A DNA stretch of 63,287 nt, counting the filler, from Phoronis australis (lineage: Eukaryota; Animalia; Phoronida), in the NCBI GenBank assembly GCA_002633005.1. It is 7 parts of 7 records of this genome, joined end to end, with 100 filler letters (N's around TTAATTAATTAA, not from the genome) between each part and the next. Parts side by side here need not be neighbours in the genome. Positions count along the whole stretch, not along the records: positions 1 to 21,757 come from NMRA01000644.1; 6 more parts are not named here. The stretch is one strand, 5' to 3'. Of the stretch, positions 1 through 56,526 are shown in pieces; within the stretch, counting starts at the first letter, position 1; each line of letters opens with the position of its first letter. The notes under the pieces are model-generated. The model had not been told where the DNA came from. It made no database searches and saw only the letters and a list, made by a program, of their open reading frames with translations. A program made the position numbers and the translations under genes.

Positions 1-176
1 AGAAGCACCCTTTTTACGCAATCTCAGATTCAGTTGGTACGGCTGCAAGGCATTTCACCATGTATTTAAAGGGCTCGCGAAATCGAGGCTGTTAATCTAT
101 CACCACTAGTACACGCACGCCCACTAGTTATTGTAGATTTTCCGAATAGCCCCATTAGAGCCGTTGCTTTAAAAGC

Positions 177-289
177 TCACTCACAGTCACAAAATCGGCC
201 AGCGCAGACTCCGGACGTGTAGCCAGCACTTTTGCACTCGGAGTCGCAAGCCTGACTCACACAACCTCTGCGGAGTCTTTGCGGCATAG
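177..289 (-). CDS. Prepro-defensin (CS-alpha-beta), exon 2: end of propeptide plus mature peptide
   Basis: Acceptor ctatttcag (cag = 292-290). The phase-1 exon reads (A)MPQRLRR-GCVSQACDSECKSAGYTSGVCAGRFCDCE-TGA (stop 179-177). Six Cys spaced C-x4-C-x3-C-x9-C-x4-C-x-C, a GxC gamma-core motif, and an RLRR furin-type site directly before the mature region. Confidence 0.88.
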
Positions 290-530
290 CTGAAATAGAG
301 GACATTTTTCACTAGTAAAATGCGGTCGTAGTTCATTCTTATCATTCTAACGGTAATTGTGAGCAGTTTCACCCAGGGCTGAGGTTAGGGGGGGGGGTTG
401 CGACGTTGGAATAACACGACCACAATGTAAAAAGTGACCGAAACGCAGCTTGTTGCATAACACTGTTGGAAGGCGTACTCCGGGAAGGAAAGCCAGAATT
501 ATATCAAAAGGACAGATGACTATCAAATAG

Positions 531-665
531 CAGGGATGAATCCAGGATTTTGAATTAGGGGGGCCAGGAGTTTTCCCGTCAGACATTTGCACCCTGAACT
601 GTCAATGGAATCTGAGAAAAATTTAAGGGGTCATGGCACCCTTGGCCCTCTGTAAGTCCGTCGTG
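531..665. mobile_element. Degenerate short MITE (CAGGGGCGGATCCAG-type termini) in the defensin intron
   Basis: Starts cagggatgaatccaggattttgaattagggg and ends gggg-tcatggcacccttggccctc-tgtaagtccgtcgtg, the same G-run architecture as the other CAG-ended elements in this window. TIRs are decayed. Confidence 0.4.
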
Positions 666-2603
666 CAGTTCGTGAAGGATAAGTTCACTACCAGTCTTCA
701 CGATTACACTGAGAACTTCCAAAATTGCCTCTGTTGCCGTTAATGCACAGCAGTTCCATAATAAGAGCTGTTGTATAAAGACCATGGAAGGACGACTGAA
801 ATGATGAGAATATTTTTCGACGCTTTGTGTGTTCAAAATGCGTTTTGAAAAGTTAATACTTTTTTCTATTTTCTTCTTTTTCAGCGATTCACTGTGCAGA
901 CTGGTTACTCTGGTAAAATACAGTTAGGATTGTGTTGGATATGTTATGAGTACTCTCTTTTGTGGCGATGTCACTTAGAAGAGCTGACTGATCCTGTCAC
1001 TCTTTACGTAGCTATATCCTCATGTCACAGGAAGGAACAGTAACGAATAAAGGTGTCCCTATTACACGGGGAGATAATGGAATCTGCGACGGAGATTTTT
1101 CTGTTTGCGTTTTAGATTTGTGGTGTACGTGGATGGAACCGCTCTATTTGGGGGCTGAACGCTTAGATCTTAACACCACGAGAAAATACCATTGTAAATT
1201 TGGGAGTCAATTAATTAAATTCTTGCCACTCGTCAAAAAAGTGAGTCGTGAAAGTAAACCAGTGAACACTTCCTGTTTCTATGGTCGGGAGGTAAACCAT
1301 AGGTATTTTTTGGCTTACGAAACCACAACATTAATTTATCTCAATTTGAAGATGGTTGATTGTTCACCATTTTTTACCTGGCGAAGTTGTGGTCAAAGTA
1401 GCCTACCATTAGTAATTATAGAATTTGTTACCAAATCACATTTTCATTAGTATATGGTCACTTTACGTTTTATACCGTAGGCGATGGTCACTGAGGGTTA
1501 TTATTTGGATATTCGTGATATGCAAAAGTATTTGTAGGAGGGCGAAGCCCGAGTTCAAATGTGCTTGCATGTCACCAAATCTGTCGCTGATGAGTGAAGC
1601 GACGATGTTTTTTTTAATTCTTTGTTAAAATCAATTACCTATTTTAATCATTAATTGTTGATTTTATTTTAAATTTAAAAAGAATTGAGCAGAGTGGCAT
1701 TGGAATTTTTTTAGTGTTGGCGTAGGAATTTTGTTAACAATAGATGTCGTGTCAGGCTTAGTGTAGGTACTTTTATATGTTTTTGTCATAATTTTCATTA
1801 CTTTTCAGGGTATAGAGTGAGTCATAGTCAACTGAGCTTTTGTTTCGCTTTTTATCCAGTATTTCGTTTCGCGTTTGTTTAGAACACCAGCAGAGAGTAT
1901 TGGGATGTTTTGAAGCCAAAAACACCTCTTGGTTCATTGTGCTTCAGTAGCTAATGTACCATAAGTTCAATCAATTATTATTCAATCCGATTTCACGTTT
2001 TAAAGACAAAACATTCCCGTGGGCAGGTGCTGGCTATCTGTAGAAGAGCTGACATGGAAACTAGTTCTTTTGTATCGCACCATGCCGTTTGATAACTCCA
2101 TTATCACACGCCTGTATCAACACGTGTGTTTGATAATGGGCTTTAAAATATAACCACGCCCTTCAGATCTTGAATTGTGAATTCGAGTAACAAACAATGC
2201 ATACAGGCATCATTTTCGAATCTGCATTTGAAATCCCAGTCAACTCTGAACTCGTTTTTGAGTATTTGATGGCGTCGATATTTTGTTGGAAGCGGAAATA
2301 GAATTCCATAGCGGTCAGAAATATTCTGAGACTGATTTGGTTAGAGTGAAAGTCCGAATTCAATTTCTGTTTGGCCATCTAAACTGTAGGATGGAATGCA
2401 GTTTTAAATTTGAAGAATTACCAAAATATGTATTCACGTCCTGAGCTCAACCAGGCTCACGTTCTGCGGACGCAAAAACTAGCAAAAACGCAAAATCTTG
2501 CGAGAAATCGCCAGGTTTTACAAGAACTGCACGTGATCATTTTAAATTCACTTGCAAGTTTTGGCGGAAATAGACCCAGAGCACTGACAGTTATTTTTCT
2601 CAC

Positions 2604-2685
2604 CTTCGTCTTCGCCATCTACCGACACCGCGTGGAGGCAGCCTACAGCCAGCATCAATACAATGAATACCGCAACGCACTTCAT
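2604..2685 (-). CDS. Prepro-defensin exon 1: signal peptide plus acidic propeptide
   Basis: ATG at 2685 gives MKCVAVFIVLMLAVGCLHAVSVDGEDE plus 1 nt, then donor AAG|gtgaga. Hydrophobic signal-like segment. The phase-1 end joins the 289-177 exon in frame to give a 64-aa precursor. Confidence 0.82.
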
Positions 2686-3396
2686 AATTCTAGTTTCCTG
2701 TAATTCAGCGTCAGATGATGTTACTGGGAAACAAGTATATAAAAAGCGAACCAAGTATATGACATTCAAACAAAGAGTGACTAAACGTTCGCAAACCTTT
2801 CATTCATCTATAGAACATTTACCCTTCCGTATTATCTCGTGGAAACTTAAATATATAGGGATATGCAGTCTTCTGTACACCCTCTACCGTAGAGGTCTAG
2901 ATACGGTTAAAGACTAAAGTATCTGCACGAGTCTCTGAGAATTGCCTAACTCCATCTTGTGAAATAGGTCTTACAACTTAACAACAATCATTTAGTAGGA
3001 AATGCGTACCTTGCGTATCTTTAGCTTTTATGTTTTAAAATAACAACTTAAAAGTTGCAATGTTACAGCAAAATAAGTCGAAGTATTTTTCTGGTATCTT
3101 ACAAGTTGGGTTTTGTTTCTTTACATAAGAAAGCCAACTTATTCAGCACAATTCTTGACCACTACGAGCTAATGGTATTTGAAGCTGATGACGCACAGTA
3201 AACATGAGGGTGACGTTCTGAACAATCGCCATCAAAAATGAACCAGCTGATTCATGCCAGTGTAAAATAACCTTCTGGAAAGATGGTATTTCAGTGCCTT
3301 TCGACGTAGATGAAGAAACTCCAGTAGATTTATACGATTTGCCTCGTCAGGAGGAAGCAACTAGAAACTCCCATGATTCAACATGGGATTCCTACT

Positions 3397-3738
3397 AAAC
3401 AGCGTATCTGGGACCCCTGAACGCACTTTTTCAAACTGACAAACACCGTTTAAAAGAACTCAAACATTATTATTTCAACGCCATTTCCCCTTACCTGCTG
3501 TACGCAAAGAGTTTGACAAAGTCCTCTCAATCACAAGAAACGAATCTTTAAGAACTAAAATGAAAGATAATACTATTAATAGAATACCTTTTACAAACAC
3601 GTTCAATCCATGTTTTAAACAGAATTAGCCACGTCTTCAGAAAACATTCTGCATATTTCACCCCAAGTTAAATATCTATTTCCACCTATAATTTATGGGA
3701 GAAAATGTAAAATCCTAGACAATATTTAGTGTGAGCGA
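3397..3738 (+). mobile_element. Penelope-like retroelement fragment (RT C-terminal/linker region), decayed
   Basis: Frame-broken translation ...FPLPAVRKEFDKVLSITRNESLRTKMKDNTINRIPFTNTFNP...ISHVFRKH...PIIYGRK...RQYLV*A matches the recalled PLE pattern R.PF..T..P...I..I.RKH...P.I.Y.R..NL...LV.A. Confidence 0.65.
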
Positions 3739-6560
3739 ATATGGACAATAAAAACCAAACTGACTTGTTGAGTGTGCTAGCACTACACGTACGTGCAACA
3801 AAATCCGGCAATTCCATTAGACACTATCGGTTTTACCTGATATATTTAGCTTCATTTTCTTCGTATAGGAGCTTGACCACGCTGCTTTTGGTATTGGAGA
3901 CGTCCAACACGAATAGGAAAGATCAATCAGAATCGGCATATCTAATAAAAGCTTTACTGACGCTTCATGGCAATCGCCGTCCGAATCAATCTAACCATGA
4001 AGCCTATAGCATGGAAGCTAAATTCGTAGGCCTACCGCATACATAGAACTCATGCTTAATATACATTGCATTTTATCGCAACAAAGTTTCTCTTGTTTAA
4101 TGCCATAGTGTGGAAGAGCACTGTTTTTGTATGGTTTACAGAAAGGATTCAGGTACATAGACTGAAGCAGAAATAAAGAATTATTCTTGACTGTATATTT
4201 TAAATGACATGATGTGGCAATGATGCATACCGCCAATTACCTTCAGTTTTTGGGTGGGAAGTGTACTATTACATGTATTTTCATTTCATATATTAGTGAC
4301 ATGAAGGAGTATTGATTACCCAAATACAGCTTTTACTGTCTGCAGTATTGGATTTCGATGTTTGTTTTACATAGTGTGTTGGTGCGACGAGTTGAAACTT
4401 GCACATGTATACTTATAATGTACAGTGTAGGCAGAATCACAAGTTTTAAGAATTTCAAAAATATTTTTTTCATTTTGATAAACATCAAGTAAGTGTTACA
4501 TGAGCGGTACGCGAAAACCTATTGAACGGCTTTTTTAATGTGTATTGCATCACAATGCTTCATCGAATCACTTTTCAAATAATATTCTAGAAAGTTGCTA
4601 CAAAGTAAAACGCGAGATCTGTGGCGTCTATTCTTCAATCAGTGTTCATCTTGCCTCCTAGCTTGCTGTTACAATAGAAAGTTTTTTATGCTTGCTAAGA
4701 GTCATTTGCTTGGAGTATATATGTAACATGAAAACTCTAATGACCCCGTCATGCATAGCATTTCCATTGAAATTATGATGAAAAACTAGCCAGAAAACCT
4801 AGATTATATTCACCATTAATAGAACACTTAATGCTCCGAAACCAGTGGTAGAACCCCAAGACAGTGTTCTATAACAGTAACTATAACTCTCCATCAGCGC
4901 GTTCGGCCACGCTCATTCGATACGATTCGTAATTGTCCGTACCATGTTGTAAAAAGCACATATAACCTAAACTTAAGAAAGGTTTTCCCTCCAAATGGAA
5001 CCTTCGTCTTTTCTTAACGAGTTTTATGGAGCTGGACTTGTTTTTCACCAGCCTTAAATCATGCAGCCGTATTTAGTGAGCATTATATATCTTACCTTCA
5101 CAATCACTCAACACCACTGATGTGAGTACGCTGTCTGGAAAAATCCATAGACGATGATTGTATTTAAAGGATTATAAAATCCTCCTCTAATTTTTGATTG
5201 GCTGATACTTGGAACATTACTCTTTGTCTAGGACACACGCTGTTTAACCAATCACGAAACATATCATTCTACCTTGAACGATTTAAGATTTTCTCGACGT
5301 TATGCTTTTCACCGCTTCGTAAGGTTTTGTTACAAGTTCGAACTTGTCACCCAAGCGAGAACCCTCCTAGTGTCAAACACACGCGCTTAACTGTGTAGGC
5401 CTATCGTATTAGCTGCGCTAGATAAGTTGGTCATGTTTGTAGAGTGCCTTATTGTGTTGCTCGTGTTGGAAATTTGGGGCTCCGAAAAAATATTGAATTC
5501 TGAGCTGGTTCAAAGTGTATCACAAATAGGCAAGTAATCGTGTTTGCGGGAATTACTGACAAAGAAATTGAAAAAATAGATCTTATTTGACCTTGTACAT
5601 GTAAATACTGTGAATCGTGCAAAGCTTTGATTTATTTATAGCCAAGATTGATTATGTTTTATAAACTTGTGTCTATGAACGATTTCAATCATCATTCAAC
5701 TGAGAAATTTATCCAATCAGCGAGGTGCTAGGACTAGTTCGTGGTATCAATTATGCATAATCGACAATTTCATAAGTACATGCGATAGCCCAATTTGCTT
5801 TATATATTTTCAAAATATGGTTAACCCACCAAATTTTTATCGCACATTGATATTACTTTATGAAGTAGTGGACACGGTAGCGTCATACTTGGACAGACAA
5901 ACATTTTATTGAACGACCTGTGCGTATTCCTTTCGGAATGGTGTGCAATTTATTATTCGAAATAAGGAATTTTAAAAATCTTTTCATGTTATGAGGCAGC
6001 ACGACATCAACGATCTGTCATTTTGAGGGCGCGTTGTGTGTTATGGCTATAGACATTCTATCGCCATTCATGTAAGGACTCGGCTTGCAAATTTATTTCC
6101 TCGCTGTTACCTTCAATAGGGTTGGCTGAATTTTATTTTTTGTTATTCTCTTATGGAAAGTCTCTCGGAAATTTATTGGATATTTTCTTAACTTTAAAAA
6201 GTGCATAAGAACTTTTTTCAGTCTATATTTGCCGGCCGGGTTGAACACCAAAATCCAGATCCTGGAAGTCACGGGTCAGCCGCTTTGAAGTATAATTCAG
6301 AGTGATAACTCAAACATTAAATAGCAGAGAATGAATTTCTTATATTCTTAATTTTGGCCTGGCAAGCATGCCCAGTCTACTTTAAAATGTTTATGATTTA
6401 CGAATGTAGGCACAAAAATGATATTTTCGAGCTAGACGTTCACAGTATAGTTTGCTGGGATGATATACAGACCGTTGACAACAGCCAGTTCCAACATAGT
6501 GGAGCACCAGGGTAGTCAAGACGATGAATTTGGGATTACGTGGCTGCATTTCGGCTGGTG

Positions 6561-7345
6561 TCCACTTAATTACAGCTATTCGTAATTTAATTAATTATTC
6601 NTGATAAATTTGGTCGTCGTTTGCTTTTGTTTTCGAGTCACTCGACATGTCACACTGTTGCTGCGTACCAGGATGTACTCATTATGGCCCAAAGCTTCTT
6701 AGCAGCCCTTCTGCGATGTTGAGTGATGGGAGTGAATACAGGCCCAGTTTGTCGTTAAATGAACACATCGGTGAGCCAAACTTTGATAAGTTTATTATGG
6801 ACTTGTCTAAAGTATTAGAGCTATTTAAAACGTGCCAGGTGACTGGCGAGGGTGTAAGCAGTTTGTGTGTTCAGGTCACTGTACAGTGCGAGCGTGTCGC
6901 GGGACACTTGGGCATGTGCGACAGCTGTCCCTCTGTCCGTGAGACAATAATGAGTACATCCCGGTACGCAGCAACAGTGTGGCATGTTTTTTTATATCTG
7001 GATATCTTAAAAACTGTAAACTAAGACATCAATAATATTTAACACCTGAAGCAAAAGGTGGGTCATTTTTTCTTCAATTTCTATCTCTTTCTTGATTACC
7101 CTGGAAACAGACTTGGACATATTTGACAATGATGTTGTCACTGGCCCTGACCAAAGTTATCCTAGTTGAAAACTAACATGGCCAAGAGGTGTAGTCACTG
7201 TTATGAGCCAAATGTACATTCTAATATGCTGAAAAAATAAATGACAGAGTAATATTACACAGGATAAGTCTGGTCATTTGTTGCAAAACCATAAGTATGG
7301 TACCATTCATTCACAGCGGAGGGCCTCTGAAGTTTGCTTAAAACA
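6561..7345 (+). pseudogene. Decayed Kolobok transposase with THAP-like start
   Basis: ORF 6647-7024 begins MSHCCCVPGC (THAP-like), then KFIMDLSKVLELFKTC...VTVQCERVAGH...DSCPSV...AATV, resembling the Kolobok N-terminal KFI..S.LLELF..C...C..GH...W.SQP...AA. Broken RC-S...AK-CTF (~7187-7221) and EGL*SL (~7318-7335) remnants follow. A 28-bp upstream motif is shared with the KolX locus at 35311. Confidence 0.6.
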
Positions 7346-21757: not shown

Positions 21758-21857
21758 NNNNNNNNNNNNNNNNNNNNNNNNNNNNNNNNNNNNNNNNNNN
21801 NTTAATTAATTAANNNNNNNNNNNNNNNNNNNNNNNNNNNNNNNNNNNNNNNNNNNN
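21758..21857. other. Artificial contig linker
   Basis: 44 N + TTAATTAATTAA (stops in all six frames) + 44 N. Confidence 0.97.
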
Positions 21858-30845: not shown

Positions 30846-30945
30846 NNNNNNNNNNNNNNNNNNNNNNNNNNNNNNNNNNNNNNNNNNNNTTAATTAATTA
30901 ANNNNNNNNNNNNNNNNNNNNNNNNNNNNNNNNNNNNNNNNNNNN
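30846..30945. other. Artificial contig linker
   Basis: N44-TTAATTAATTAA-N44. Confidence 0.97.
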
Positions 30946-35236: not shown

Positions 35237-35930
35237 TTAAGGGCGAAGGCAACCTTTTTCCATGTCATTTTGAGCTAAAATAAGGTTGGTTGGTTATCCT
35301 AGACATATTTTCCACTTAATTACAGCTTTTCGTAATTTTATAGATTACTCGTCCGCTACTCCGGAAGTGACGTTTTAGGAGGCAAGCGTTTCCCGCCACT
35401 TGGTTTTGCGTTGACTTTACCATGCGAATCTGTTCTATTCTACTTTTGTTTTGTGCTGTTTTTCAACAATTGTCGCCACCACTTTCTACCGGCGAGTATT
35501 CTGCGGCAAGATAGGTTAGTAGAGAACTCAACTACGTTGGATTTAGGGTTTGTTTAGTGTGTTGTGAGCTGAAAATGGCTGGAGTCGGTGACCCGTATCA
35601 CAGTGACAGTAGTGTGAGTGACGGAGACCTTTTTCACAGCAGTGGTGACGAGGAATTTTTTCATGGACATTCAGTGGGTGGGTACATGTTTGAGCCCGAG
35701 TATAACGAGGCAGAGTACGCACAGGCACAGGCAGCTGTTGAGAGAAACGAGGCGGCTACAGACGTGGTGACACATCTTGGTGCAAATGCACTGTGTGCGT
35801 TGTTATGCCTACCTCAATGGAATGCTTGTGCTGTTCAGAGTTCGACGAGGCCAAGCCACTACTGGACATGGTTAAGTGGACCTCCAGCATACCACGGACA
35901 GAGGAACAACTGTCCCACTTGCCAGAGTGT
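35237..35930 (+). mobile_element. Kolobok element end carrying a frameshifted KolX / P2X7-ballast-like ORF
   Basis: TTAA then GGGCGAAGGCAACC terminus. ATG 35575 gives an acidic N-terminus with GYMFEPEY; after a frameshift (~35755) it reads RRGDTSWCKCTVCVVMPTSMECLCCSE, matching the recalled PYxFEP...WCxCxxCxxMPTxxExxCCxE signature. Truncated by linker. Confidence 0.75.
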
Positions 35931-36030
35931 NNNNNNNNNNNNNNNNNNNNNNNNNNNNNNNNNNNNNNNNNNNNTTAATTAATTAANNNNNNNNNNNNNN
36001 NNNNNNNNNNNNNNNNNNNNNNNNNNNNNN
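35931..36030. other. Artificial contig linker
   Basis: N44-TTAATTAATTAA-N44. Confidence 0.97.
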
Positions 36031-42301: not shown

Positions 42302-42401
42302 NNNNNNNNNNNNNNNNNNNNNNNNNNNNNNNNNNNNNNNNNNNNTTAATTAATTAANNNNNNNNNNNNNNNNNNNNNNNNNNNNNNNNNNNNNNNNNNN
42401 N
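42302..42401. other. Artificial contig linker
   Basis: N44-TTAATTAATTAA-N44. Confidence 0.97.
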
Positions 42402-49316: not shown

Positions 49317-49949
49317 TTAGGTTTGGACGAAAACGTTTGCATCTTTGCCAACTGAACTTTCTGCACGGCAGATGAATCCTTTATAATAAGCAGGAATGCT
49401 TTTCACGGAGACGTCGAGGTTGTTTGTGTTCTCACTAGTTCTTCCGTACTGATCAAGCGAGGCTTTCTTTCGGTTGTACAAAATTGGAAGCTGACCTCCT
49501 TGCATATCGGAGACATATTCCCAAGACACGTCTGGAATGGGATCTCCGGACGCTGCGCATCTCAGCTGCAGCGTATCGTTCACCACCCGGACTCCAGTCT
49601 TGCTAGAGATGATGTCGGGCTTCACGCACGAGAAGTCTACGTCACTGGTTTCATACAACAAAGATTTGGTATGGGGCGTTCTGCAGTAAAGCGCTGATCC
49701 TCGCCTGAAGTAGGATTGTTTTGGAATTGCTTTGAGCCAGGCTACTTCACAGTTACAGTGAATGGGGTTGCCATAGATGCTGAGCATGTCTAAGTTGGAG
49801 AAAACGGGCTGAAGATCTTGCGCACGGAAGGTGGGAATTTTGTTCATGCTCACATAAAGGCGTTTGAGTTCTCTGAAGGACTGGAAATGGCTCGCTTTGA
49901 TTTCGGTCAGTAAATTCCCACCCAGAACAGCCGTTACCAATTTGGGTGA
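49317..49949 (-). CDS. LRR-LRRCT-Ig domain protein, 3' part (5' end lost at linker)
   Basis: Three LRRs (LVTAVLGGNLL, LKRLYVSMNKI, LDMLSIYGNPI), LRRCT (NPIHCNCEVAWL...C..P...C) and an I-set Ig (LQLRCAASGDPIPDVSW...FICRAES). Uninterrupted ORF ending TAA. Confidence 0.9.
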   Translation of the reverse strand, partial: SPKLVTAVLGGNLLTEIKASHFQSFRELKRLYVSMNKIPTFRAQDLQPVFSNLDMLSIYGNPIHCNCEVAWLKAIPKQSYFRRGSALYCRTPHTKSLLYETSDVDFSCVKPDIISSKTGVRVVNDTLQLRCAASGDPIPDVSWEYVSDMQGGQLPILYNRKKASLDQYGRTSENTNNLDVSVKSIPAYYKGFICRAESSVGKDANVFVQT

Positions 49950-50049
49950 NNNNNNNNNNNNNNNNNNNNNNNNNNNNNNNNNNNNNNNNNNNNTTAATTA
50001 ATTAANNNNNNNNNNNNNNNNNNNNNNNNNNNNNNNNNNNNNNNNNNNN
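49950..50049. other. Artificial contig linker
   Basis: N44-TTAATTAATTAA-N44. Confidence 0.97.
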
Positions 50050-56426: not shown

Positions 56427-56526
56427 NNNNNNNNNNNNNNNNNNNNNNNNNNNNNNNNNNNNNNNNNNNNTTAATTAATTAANNNNNNNNNNNNNNNNNN
56501 NNNNNNNNNNNNNNNNNNNNNNNNNN
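56427..56526. other. Artificial contig linker
   Basis: N44-TTAATTAATTAA-N44. Confidence 0.97.

What the first reader, a model, noticed from the sequence alone, without database searches (positions are those of the whole stretch)
177..2685. Hidden two-exon prepro-defensin with an acidic 29-aa CS-alpha-beta mature peptide
Seen: splicing 2685-2604 (donor gtgaga) to 289-177 (acceptor tttcag) gives MKCVAVFIVLMLAVGCLHAVSVDGEDEAMPQRLRR/GCVSQACDSECKSAGYTSGVCAGRFCDCE*. The ORF track reads exon 2 in a different frame, so the peptide is easily missed. Established: signal peptide + acidic propeptide + RxRR site + C..CxxxC..GxC..CxC, with a phase-1 intron ahead of the mature exon, is the arthropod/mollusc-type defensin organisation. 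Unusual: the mature peptide has 4 acidic versus 2 basic residues (net about -2) and a very short first loop, whereas most such defensins are cationic. Inference: an anionic antimicrobial peptide, or a toxin-like/ion-channel-binding peptide comparable in size and charge to short acidic scorpion CS-alpha-beta peptides.
Basis: partly seen in the sequence, partly recalled or inferred. Interest (0 to 1): 0.85.

Follow-up and report, generated by a model that had tools for sequence, protein, structure and literature searches.

The report
Acidic mini-defensin from abundant peptide family
An unidentified animal genome holds a small spliced gene for a likely secreted, mildly acidic 29-residue peptide with a predicted insect-defensin/scorpion-toxin fold; it belongs to an abundantly transcribed family and is most likely an ordinary host-defence peptide.

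Summary
Exons 2685-2604 and 289-177 (minus strand, GT/AG, phase 1) give a 64-aa frame ending in a 29-aa peptide with six Cys (spacing 4-3-9-4-1), 4 acidic and 2 basic residues. AlphaFold gives a helix plus two strands (pLDDT 92) that fits short scorpion toxins and defensins at under 1 A. One contig from a run guessed to be RNA shows the same junction and a third, 5'-UTR exon, but it is a close paralogue or allele, not this copy; three raw RNA runs give no junction read for this copy. New here: thousands of stranded reads show exon 1 of relatives spliced to at least four other second exons that keep the R-x-R-R site in register, so this is one member of an abundant secreted-peptide family. The toxin idea is weak: the core reads GVCAG, defensin-like, without the K-C-x-N signature. 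Anionic defensins are already described. The host phylum could not be determined. If it is a deuterostome or annelid-like animal, the six-Cys defensin type would be new there as far as I read. Verdict: new member of a known kind, moderate interest.

The parts
3495..3554 (-). 5'-UTR exon (5' end not determined; 3554 is where the contig starts)
   Evidence: X1 contig matches 3494-3554 with 0 differences in 61 nt and joins to 2696, skipping 797 nt with GT..AG ends; 2 X4 reads show the same joint; donor context. The stretch also matches another contig at about 84% across the donor, so it may lie in a repeated element.
2698..3494 (-). intron in the 5' UTR, 797 nt, GT..AG
2604..2697 (-). exon with 12 nt of UTR, start codon (2685), signal peptide and first part of the propeptide; ends in phase 1
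   Evidence: conserved at 90-95% in thousands of stranded reads from paralogues
2629..2685 (-). predicted signal peptide, residues 1-19
   Evidence: Lys at 2, hydrophobic core (Kyte-Doolittle up to 3.5), small residue at -1; cleavage site inferred by eye, no SignalP available
290..2603 (-). phase-1 intron, 2314 nt, GT..AG, inside the propeptide
   Evidence: joint 290/2606 in the X1 contig, one substituted base between
267..289 (-). end of the propeptide with the R-L-R-R processing site
   Evidence: R-x-R-R in the same register in four other paralogue exon starts read by hand from loose ends
180..266 (-). mature peptide, 29 aa, six Cys (spacing 4-3-9-4-1), pI 4.5, charge about -2.3 at pH 7, predicted CS-alpha-beta fold
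177..179 (-). stop codon TGA
1..156 (.). genomic repeat starting 20 nt after the stop codon; no AATAAA/ATTAAA on the gene's strand in 1-176
   Evidence: reads on both strands, loose ends at 156/157 with low agreement of 0.36-0.41; motif scan

Best explanation
This is a spliced gene whose 64-residue product is likely secreted and cut after R-L-R-R to release a 29-residue peptide predicted to fold as a three-disulfide CS-alpha-beta mini-defensin, most likely a host-defence effector. Steps: transcription from the minus strand and removal of two GT-AG introns (shown for a close paralogue or allele, inferred for this copy); signal-peptide removal near residue 19 (inferred); C1-C4/C2-C5/C3-C6 pairing (inferred from the gap-free match of all six Cys to solved structures); furin-type cleavage (inferred, supported by the site's conservation across the family); release into body fluid or mucus (inferred). 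With a net charge near -2 it is unlikely to lyse membranes by charge attraction. I favour binding to a specific microbial surface target (cell-wall precursor, glycan or lipid), narrow in spectrum, as one rarely expressed variant of a family that keeps its export exon and varies its mature exon.
For: Fold: helix 6-16 and strands 21-24 and 27-30, pLDDT 92 from a single sequence. Foldseek: BmBKTx1 (3e8y) TM 0.85, rmsd 0.6 A over 28 columns; cobatoxin 1 and Centruroides defensin-1 at probability 0.99-1.0. VIA-align best rows navitoxin Z 5.0 (rmsd 0.9, 30 aligned), then BmBKTx1, defensin-1, nasonin-1M and termicin at Z 4.0-4.7. Sequence: cobatoxin 1 E 3e-4, scorpion defensin-1 E 1e-3; 9 of 10 hits among 1.84 billion representatives are lepidopteran secreted proteins of tandem six-Cys repeats. 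Precursor plan matches insect defensins (signal, acidic propeptide, RxKR; PMC11116330 passage) and tick defensins (RVRR; PMC9208123 passage). Core motif GVCAG resembles the defensin GYCAG, not the toxin GKCMN (PMC5116183 passage). Family: depth at 2625 is 1233, 2257 and 3582 reads on one strand against 2, 1 and 0 on the other in X2-X4; their 3' ends run into other exons keeping R-x-R-R with x = T, S, G (raw reads) or Y (X1 contig) (read by hand). Anionic defensins with antibacterial activity are reported.
Against: No activity data. No Foldseek match reaches E 0.001 (best 0.046); Z 5 is in the range the tool calls common; all 3 Pfam hits are below their cut-offs; Atlas hits are at most 0.84, leads only, and are scorpion-toxin families. 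The best sequence and Foldseek hit is a K+-channel toxin, not a defensin. The joint 290/2606 has 0 reads in each of X2, X3 and X4 (about 18-19 in 100 of each run read). The only junction evidence is one contig of a run only guessed to be RNA, which differs in exon 2 by 7 substitutions and 6 gap bases and has an unrelated 3' UTR. Only the first one or two mature residues of the abundant paralogues were visible, so they need not share this fold. The host and tissues are unknown.
Confidence: 0.6

Rival explanations
1. The copy is an intact-looking but silent or decaying duplicate (or a presence/absence allele) in a birth-and-death family; its relatives do the work.
For: 0 junction reads in X2-X4 while relatives give thousands of exon-1 reads. 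A repeat begins 20 nt after the stop and no poly(A) hexamer lies in 1-176. The 3' UTR does not align with that of the close relative in X1.
Against: Frame, both splice sites, six Cys and RLRR are intact. The near-identical relative is spliced in X1, and 2 X4 reads carry the 5'-UTR joint. Only about a fifth of three runs from one study was read, from unknown tissues and other individuals. The window ends 176 nt after the stop, so a poly(A) site may lie outside.
Confidence: 0.2
2. The peptide is an ion-channel ligand used in chemical defence or predation, convergent on short scorpion K+-channel toxins.
For: Top sequence and Foldseek hit is cobatoxin 1, top VIA row navitoxin, best Pfam Toxin_2 below cut-off. 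The first loop is short (4 residues; 2 in the X1 relative, read from gaps), one of two stated prerequisites. A conserved signal exon with variable mature exons is also how toxin families look (recalled). Tc32 binds Kv1.3 without the usual surface.
Against: No K-C4-x-N: the residue before C4 is Val and +2 is Gly. Only 2 basic residues, so no basic ring. The acidic propeptide with RxRR matches defensin precursors. Likeness at 29 residues is driven by Cys and Gly.
Confidence: 0.12
3. It is a secreted signalling or protease-inhibiting cysteine-rich peptide (neuropeptide-like, reproductive or wound-related) that uses the defensin fold.
For: Signal + propeptide + RxRR is also the plan of peptide hormones (recalled). 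Negative charge fits receptor or enzyme binding. The fold is shared by plant trypsin inhibitors (PMC7203481 passage) and LURE1.2 appears among weak VIA rows (Z 2.5).
Against: High family abundance and apparently faster change in the mature exon (3 of 153 against 7 of 101 substitutions, P 0.09; with the indel P 0.03) fit defence better than conserved signalling, though weakly.
Confidence: 0.08

Closest known systems
Six-cysteine arthropod/mollusc-type defensins with short n-loop (scorpion defensin-1 6BI5, tick defensins, nasonin-1, termicin)
   Same: Six Cys with CxxxC and CxC, G-x-C core (GVCAG against GYCAG), helix plus hairpin, signal + propeptide + RxRR.
   Different: 29 residues against about 40 in ticks; net about -2; first loop 4 residues; no relative found in the sequence collections at precursor length; host apparently not an insect (inferred).
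Short scorpion K+-channel toxins (cobatoxin 1 1PJV, BmBKTx1 1R1G/3E8Y, tamapin; Pfam PF00451)
   Same: Size, Cys spacing without gaps against cobatoxin 1, backbone rmsd 0.6-1.1 A.
   Different: No K-C4-x-N signature, few basic residues, Pfam score 16.2 against cut-off 25.1.
Anionic defensins (Amblyomma defensin-2, Bombyx anionic defensin, SpliDef)
   Same: Acidic pI (4.5 here; 4.44, 4.12 and 4.3 in the paper) on a six-Cys frame.
   Different: SpliDef is 50 residues with a 10-residue first loop; no direct sequence comparison was made.
Lepidopteran tandem six-Cys repeat proteins ('tenascin-like', 'knottins-like' in NCBI)
   Same: Repeat unit with similar spacing, 32-42% identity.
   Different: Multi-repeat 210-644-aa proteins; low E-values come from summed repeats; not a single-domain prepropeptide.
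Sea-star CS-alpha-beta sequences in Tarr 2016 (three Patiria/Asterina entries)
   Same: Same superfamily, in a deuterostome.
   Different: The one row shown has spacing 6-11-3-9-2-9-1, eight Cys, which I read as macin-like; not the six-Cys type.

Membership tests
CS-alpha-beta (cis-defensin) superfamily | CxxxC in a helix and CxC in the last strand, six-Cys frame | tested here: met
   spacing 4-3-9-4-1; helix 6-16 covers C2/C3, strand 27-30 covers C5/C6
CS-alpha-beta (cis-defensin) superfamily | helix packed on a two-stranded sheet like solved members | tested here: met
   predicted model only; TM 0.75-0.85, rmsd 0.6-1.3 A to top members, but no E <= 0.001
CS-alpha-beta (cis-defensin) superfamily | C1-C4, C2-C5, C3-C6 disulfides | tested here: inconclusive
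   the tool reports no bonds; inferred from one-to-one Cys alignment with cobatoxin 1 and defensin-1
Arthropod/mollusc-type six-Cys defensin | signal peptide + propeptide + dibasic or furin site | tested here: met
   hydropathy and RLRR; site conserved in paralogues; cleavage itself not shown
Arthropod/mollusc-type six-Cys defensin | first-loop length within the family range | tested here: inconclusive
   4 residues: inside 4-16 (PMC5116183), outside 5-16 (PMC3234185)
Arthropod/mollusc-type six-Cys defensin | Pfam defensin model above cut-off | tested here: not met
   PF24552 14.8 bits against 27; PF00304 14.4 against 25.1. PMC5116183 finds no criteria that unify 'invertebrate defensins', so I file it under the superfamily only.
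Arthropod/mollusc-type six-Cys defensin | antimicrobial activity | not testable with these tools
   needs assay
Scorpion alpha-KTx-type K+-channel toxin | K-C4-x-N signature | tested here: not met
   GVCAG around C4; definition from PMC8252768
Scorpion alpha-KTx-type K+-channel toxin | short n-loop | tested here: met
   4 residues
Scorpion alpha-KTx-type K+-channel toxin | Pfam Toxin_2 above cut-off | tested here: not met
   16.2 bits against 25.1
Scorpion alpha-KTx-type K+-channel toxin | channel block; venom-gland expression | not testable with these tools
   tissues of X1-X4 are not given

The most novel reading that the evidence does not exclude
The host is a deuterostome (echinoderm, acorn worm or lancelet) or another marine phylum from which six-cysteine arthropod-type defensins have not been reported, and it runs a large, very abundant family of them: one conserved export exon coupled to fast-changing mature exons, some shrunk to scorpion-toxin size (first loop 4 and 2 residues) and acidic. 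That would extend this defensin type to a new branch of animals and give an independent natural series of loop-shortened defensins.
Probability: 0.35. Interest if true: 0.65.

Novelty: new member of a known kind. Interest (0 to 1): 0.38.

Why it matters
Tiny split genes like this are missed by annotation, and no relative of precursor length was found in the 5.8-billion-protein search (limited sensitivity). It opens an unannotated, abundant family of secreted peptides. An acidic 29-residue defensin fold is a compact test case for how anionic defensins act, which PMC3234185 calls unresolved, and for whether loop shortening alone moves a defensin towards ion channels. If the host is a deuterostome, the known range of this defensin type changes. 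As it stands it is one more member of a large, well-studied superfamily.

Tried and rejected
No whole genome is held, so paralogues could not be searched in DNA. Within the window there is no second copy of any exon. The look-up of sequencing runs: no RNA holder listed; X1 held 0.19 of the words and X2-X4 came by species label. Word-indexed protein search with the exon-2 frame (43 residues, 7 of them from the intron) found no candidate among 23-76-aa proteins. Attempts to place the host failed: the LRR-Ig fragment gave 0 of 78 and 0 of 663 candidates at E <= 0.001, 0 of 55 pattern matches confirmed in metagenomes, and Atlas clusters 'commonest Chordata' for 9 of 10 rows, which the tool says does not give range. 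Pfam found nothing at E <= 0.001 in 193 further open frames (137 + 56) and only the LRR-Ig among 12 scanned at 0.05, apart from one weak HEAT hit. Rfam 0 and tRNA 0. No paper holds the N-terminal 7 residues; the k-mer search gave nothing relevant. Paper searches for this defensin type in deuterostomes (listings only) showed none, but most subscription papers are not covered. The search for related loci would not take either exon (too short). No complex prediction was run, as no binding is claimed. Rejected: chance motif (0 of 100 simulations plus RNA evidence); exon 1 using another acceptor in the intron (no such joint; no alternative gives RxRR); phase-1 intron as a family marker. Earlier-findings look-ups gave nothing on this genome or sequence and only prokaryotic items for 'defensin'. 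One notebook entry misread the 38.1-kb exon as ending in a stop; one search shows it open.

Full report
Observation. The minus strand holds an 82-nt exon from the ATG at 2685 to 2604, followed by GTGAGA, and a 113-nt exon from 289 to the stop at 177, preceded by TTTCAG. Together they give one 64-codon frame. The last 29 residues follow R-L-R-R and hold six Cys at spacing 4-3-9-4-1, four D/E and two K/R, pI 4.5. The strict CS-alpha-beta pattern occurs once in the window and in 0 of 100 simulated windows. Of 122 AG sites after the donor, only 289 yields an RxRR-type site, though it is not the most pyrimidine-rich.

Splicing and expression. Four runs of one organism label were laid on 1-4000, and X1 again at lower stringency. 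One 313-nt contig of X1 (RNA is the tool's guess) runs 3554-3494, then 2696-2606, then 290-184. It shows the predicted junction and an upstream untranslated exon behind a 797-nt GT-AG intron, so the gene likely has three exons. The contig is not this copy. It has 0 differences in 61 nt of the 5' exon, 3 in 92 nt of exon 1, but 7 substitutions and 6 gap bases in exon 2 and a 3' end that does not align. Read by hand, the gaps shorten the first loop from 4 to 2 residues; 2 of the 7 substitutions were not listed, so its charge is uncertain. In the raw runs X2-X4 (about 18-19 in 100 of each read) the exon-1/exon-2 joint has 0 reads and the 5' joint has 2 reads in X4. Expression of this exact copy is therefore not shown. 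It is also not shown that organism A is the window's own species rather than a very close one.

A family. In X2, X3 and X4 position 2625 is covered by 1233, 2257 and 3582 reads on one strand and 2, 1 and 0 on the other, about 97, 200 and 324 per million records read. Most are 90-95% alike, and they leave the window at 2604-2609 into other sequence (1154, 2048 and 2700 reads for the main type; 516 and 147 for two more in X4; 104 loose-end rows were not shown). Read by hand, these loose ends keep the register of this gene's second exon and end the propeptide in R-x-R-R with x = T, S or G, and Y in an X1 contig, against L here. This supports the reading frame and the cleavage site. Of the six exon-1 changes displayed for the main type, the three in the signal core are synonymous and the three near the cleavage site are not (3 of 6 synonymous, P 0.17 against a quarter; 59 rows of that table were not shown), which is weak support. 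Only one or two mature residues of these relatives are visible, so their folds are unknown. The contrast in divergence between upstream exons and exon 2 for the X1 relative is suggestive only (P 0.09; 0.03 counting the indel).

Fold. AlphaFold on 31 residues without an alignment gave pLDDT 92, a helix at 6-16 and strands at 21-24 and 27-30. Foldseek's best rows are cobatoxin 1, tamapin, Centruroides defensin-1 and BmBKTx1 (TM 0.74-0.85, rmsd 0.6-1.3 A), none at E <= 0.001. VIA-align over 48,161 chains ranks navitoxin (Z 5.0), BmBKTx1, defensin-1, nasonin-1M and termicin first. By sequence, cobatoxin 1 (E 3e-4) and defensin-1 (E 1e-3) align with all six Cys without gaps. Pfam Toxin_2, Defensin and Gamma-thionin all score below cut-off. 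Among 1.84 billion representatives 10 proteins pass E 0.001; 9 are lepidopteran tandem-repeat proteins and 1 is an unrelated-looking unnamed 1062-aa protein. Scores are modest, as expected at this length, but agree on the superfamily.

How it likely works. Export by a 19-residue signal peptide, three disulfides, furin-type cleavage after RLRR, and release of a 2.9-kDa peptide: all inferred. The precursor plan is that of insect and tick defensins (PMC11116330 and PMC9208123, passages). The core around C4 is GVCAG; PMC5116183 contrasts defensin GYCAG with toxin GKCMN (passages), and PMC8252768 defines the K-C4-x-N signature while noting exceptions such as Tc32 (passages). I therefore favour host defence (0.6), by specific binding to a microbial surface component rather than charge-driven lysis; that last step is inference from the charge alone. 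Rivals: silent or decaying duplicate (0.2), ion-channel ligand (0.12), signalling or inhibitor peptide (0.08).

Comparison with what is known. Anionic defensins are reported from Amblyomma, Bombyx and Spodoptera (PMC3234185, passages). Loops of 4-16 residues are within the insect range. Phase-1 introns near signal peptides are general, and 5'-UTR introns occur in BmP05 and opiscorpine 3 (PMC5308243, passages).

Host. No tool named the organism. The window is gene-poor, 38% G+C, CpG o/e 0.71, enriched in TACATGTA (28 against 3.7 expected) and TAGGCCTA (12 against 0.8), both strands counted, and holds an LRR-Ig exon. From recall only, this looks like a marine invertebrate such as an echinoderm, acorn worm, lancelet or lophotrochozoan; a paper search did not back the k-mer impression. 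PMC5116183 does not mention deuterostomes in its text and says typical arthropod/mollusc defensins were unreported from annelids. Its supplements list three sea-star sequences, the one row shown having eight Cys, and none from Branchiostoma, Saccoglossus or Strongylocentrotus (term search only). The echinoderm section of PMC11767717 (sections 8 and 23 read) and passages of PMC10608444 and PMC7203481 name no six-Cys CS-alpha-beta defensin there. These are few sources, and subscription papers and bioRxiv supplements were not searchable.

Verdict. A real, well-formed gene model for a small acidic CS-alpha-beta peptide, one member of an abundant unannotated family; a new member of a known kind. 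Interest 0.38. It would rise to about 0.65 if the host proves to be a phylum without such defensins on record and the paralogues share the fold (probability about 0.35).

Noticed in passing
window 49317-49949 (-): LRR + Ig-domain coding exon whose 5' part is lost in a scaffold gap (Pfam LRR_8 E 8e-6, Ig_3 E 4e-5; Atlas LRR-Ig clusters 0.90-0.95); ends in a stop right after the Ig domain, with no transmembrane part in this frame.
   Followed up: partly
window 38501-38445 and 38146-38064 (-): Two small AG..GT-bounded stretches whose phases fit and keep one charged, Lys/Glu/Ala-rich frame open; possibly exons of an unannotated gene.
   Followed up: partly
window 2604-2697 (relatives in runs X1-X4): At least four other second exons and several different 5' ends attach to relatives of this exon; the main type begins its mature part with Ile-Thr, others with Cys (hand-read). 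The family deserves its own study.
   Followed up: partly
window 6646-7024 (+) and 35577-35930 (+): Short frames that look transposon-derived (THAP-like start; acidic start then Cys-rich), by recall; no Pfam support. 6645-6685 and 6947-6987 form a 41-nt inverted repeat at 95%.
   Followed up: no
window 47999-48529/48527-49058 and 51938-52490/52492-53052: Tandem duplicated blocks of about 530-560 nt at 98% identity, possibly assembly artefacts.
   Followed up: no
window 21758-21857, 30846-30945, 35931-36030, 42302-42401, 49950-50049, 56427-56526: Scaffold joints made of 44 N, a 12-nt all-frame-stop linker and 44 N: draft assembly, so order across them is uncertain.
   Followed up: no
window 567-577 (-): A kappa-B-like site inside the long intron, but within a repeated stretch covered by unrelated contigs; probably incidental.
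   Followed up: no
P0002-P0010: Lepidopteran proteins labelled 'tenascin-like' or 'knottins-like' are secreted arrays of 4-11 defensin-like six-Cys repeats; the labels look wrong.
   Followed up: no
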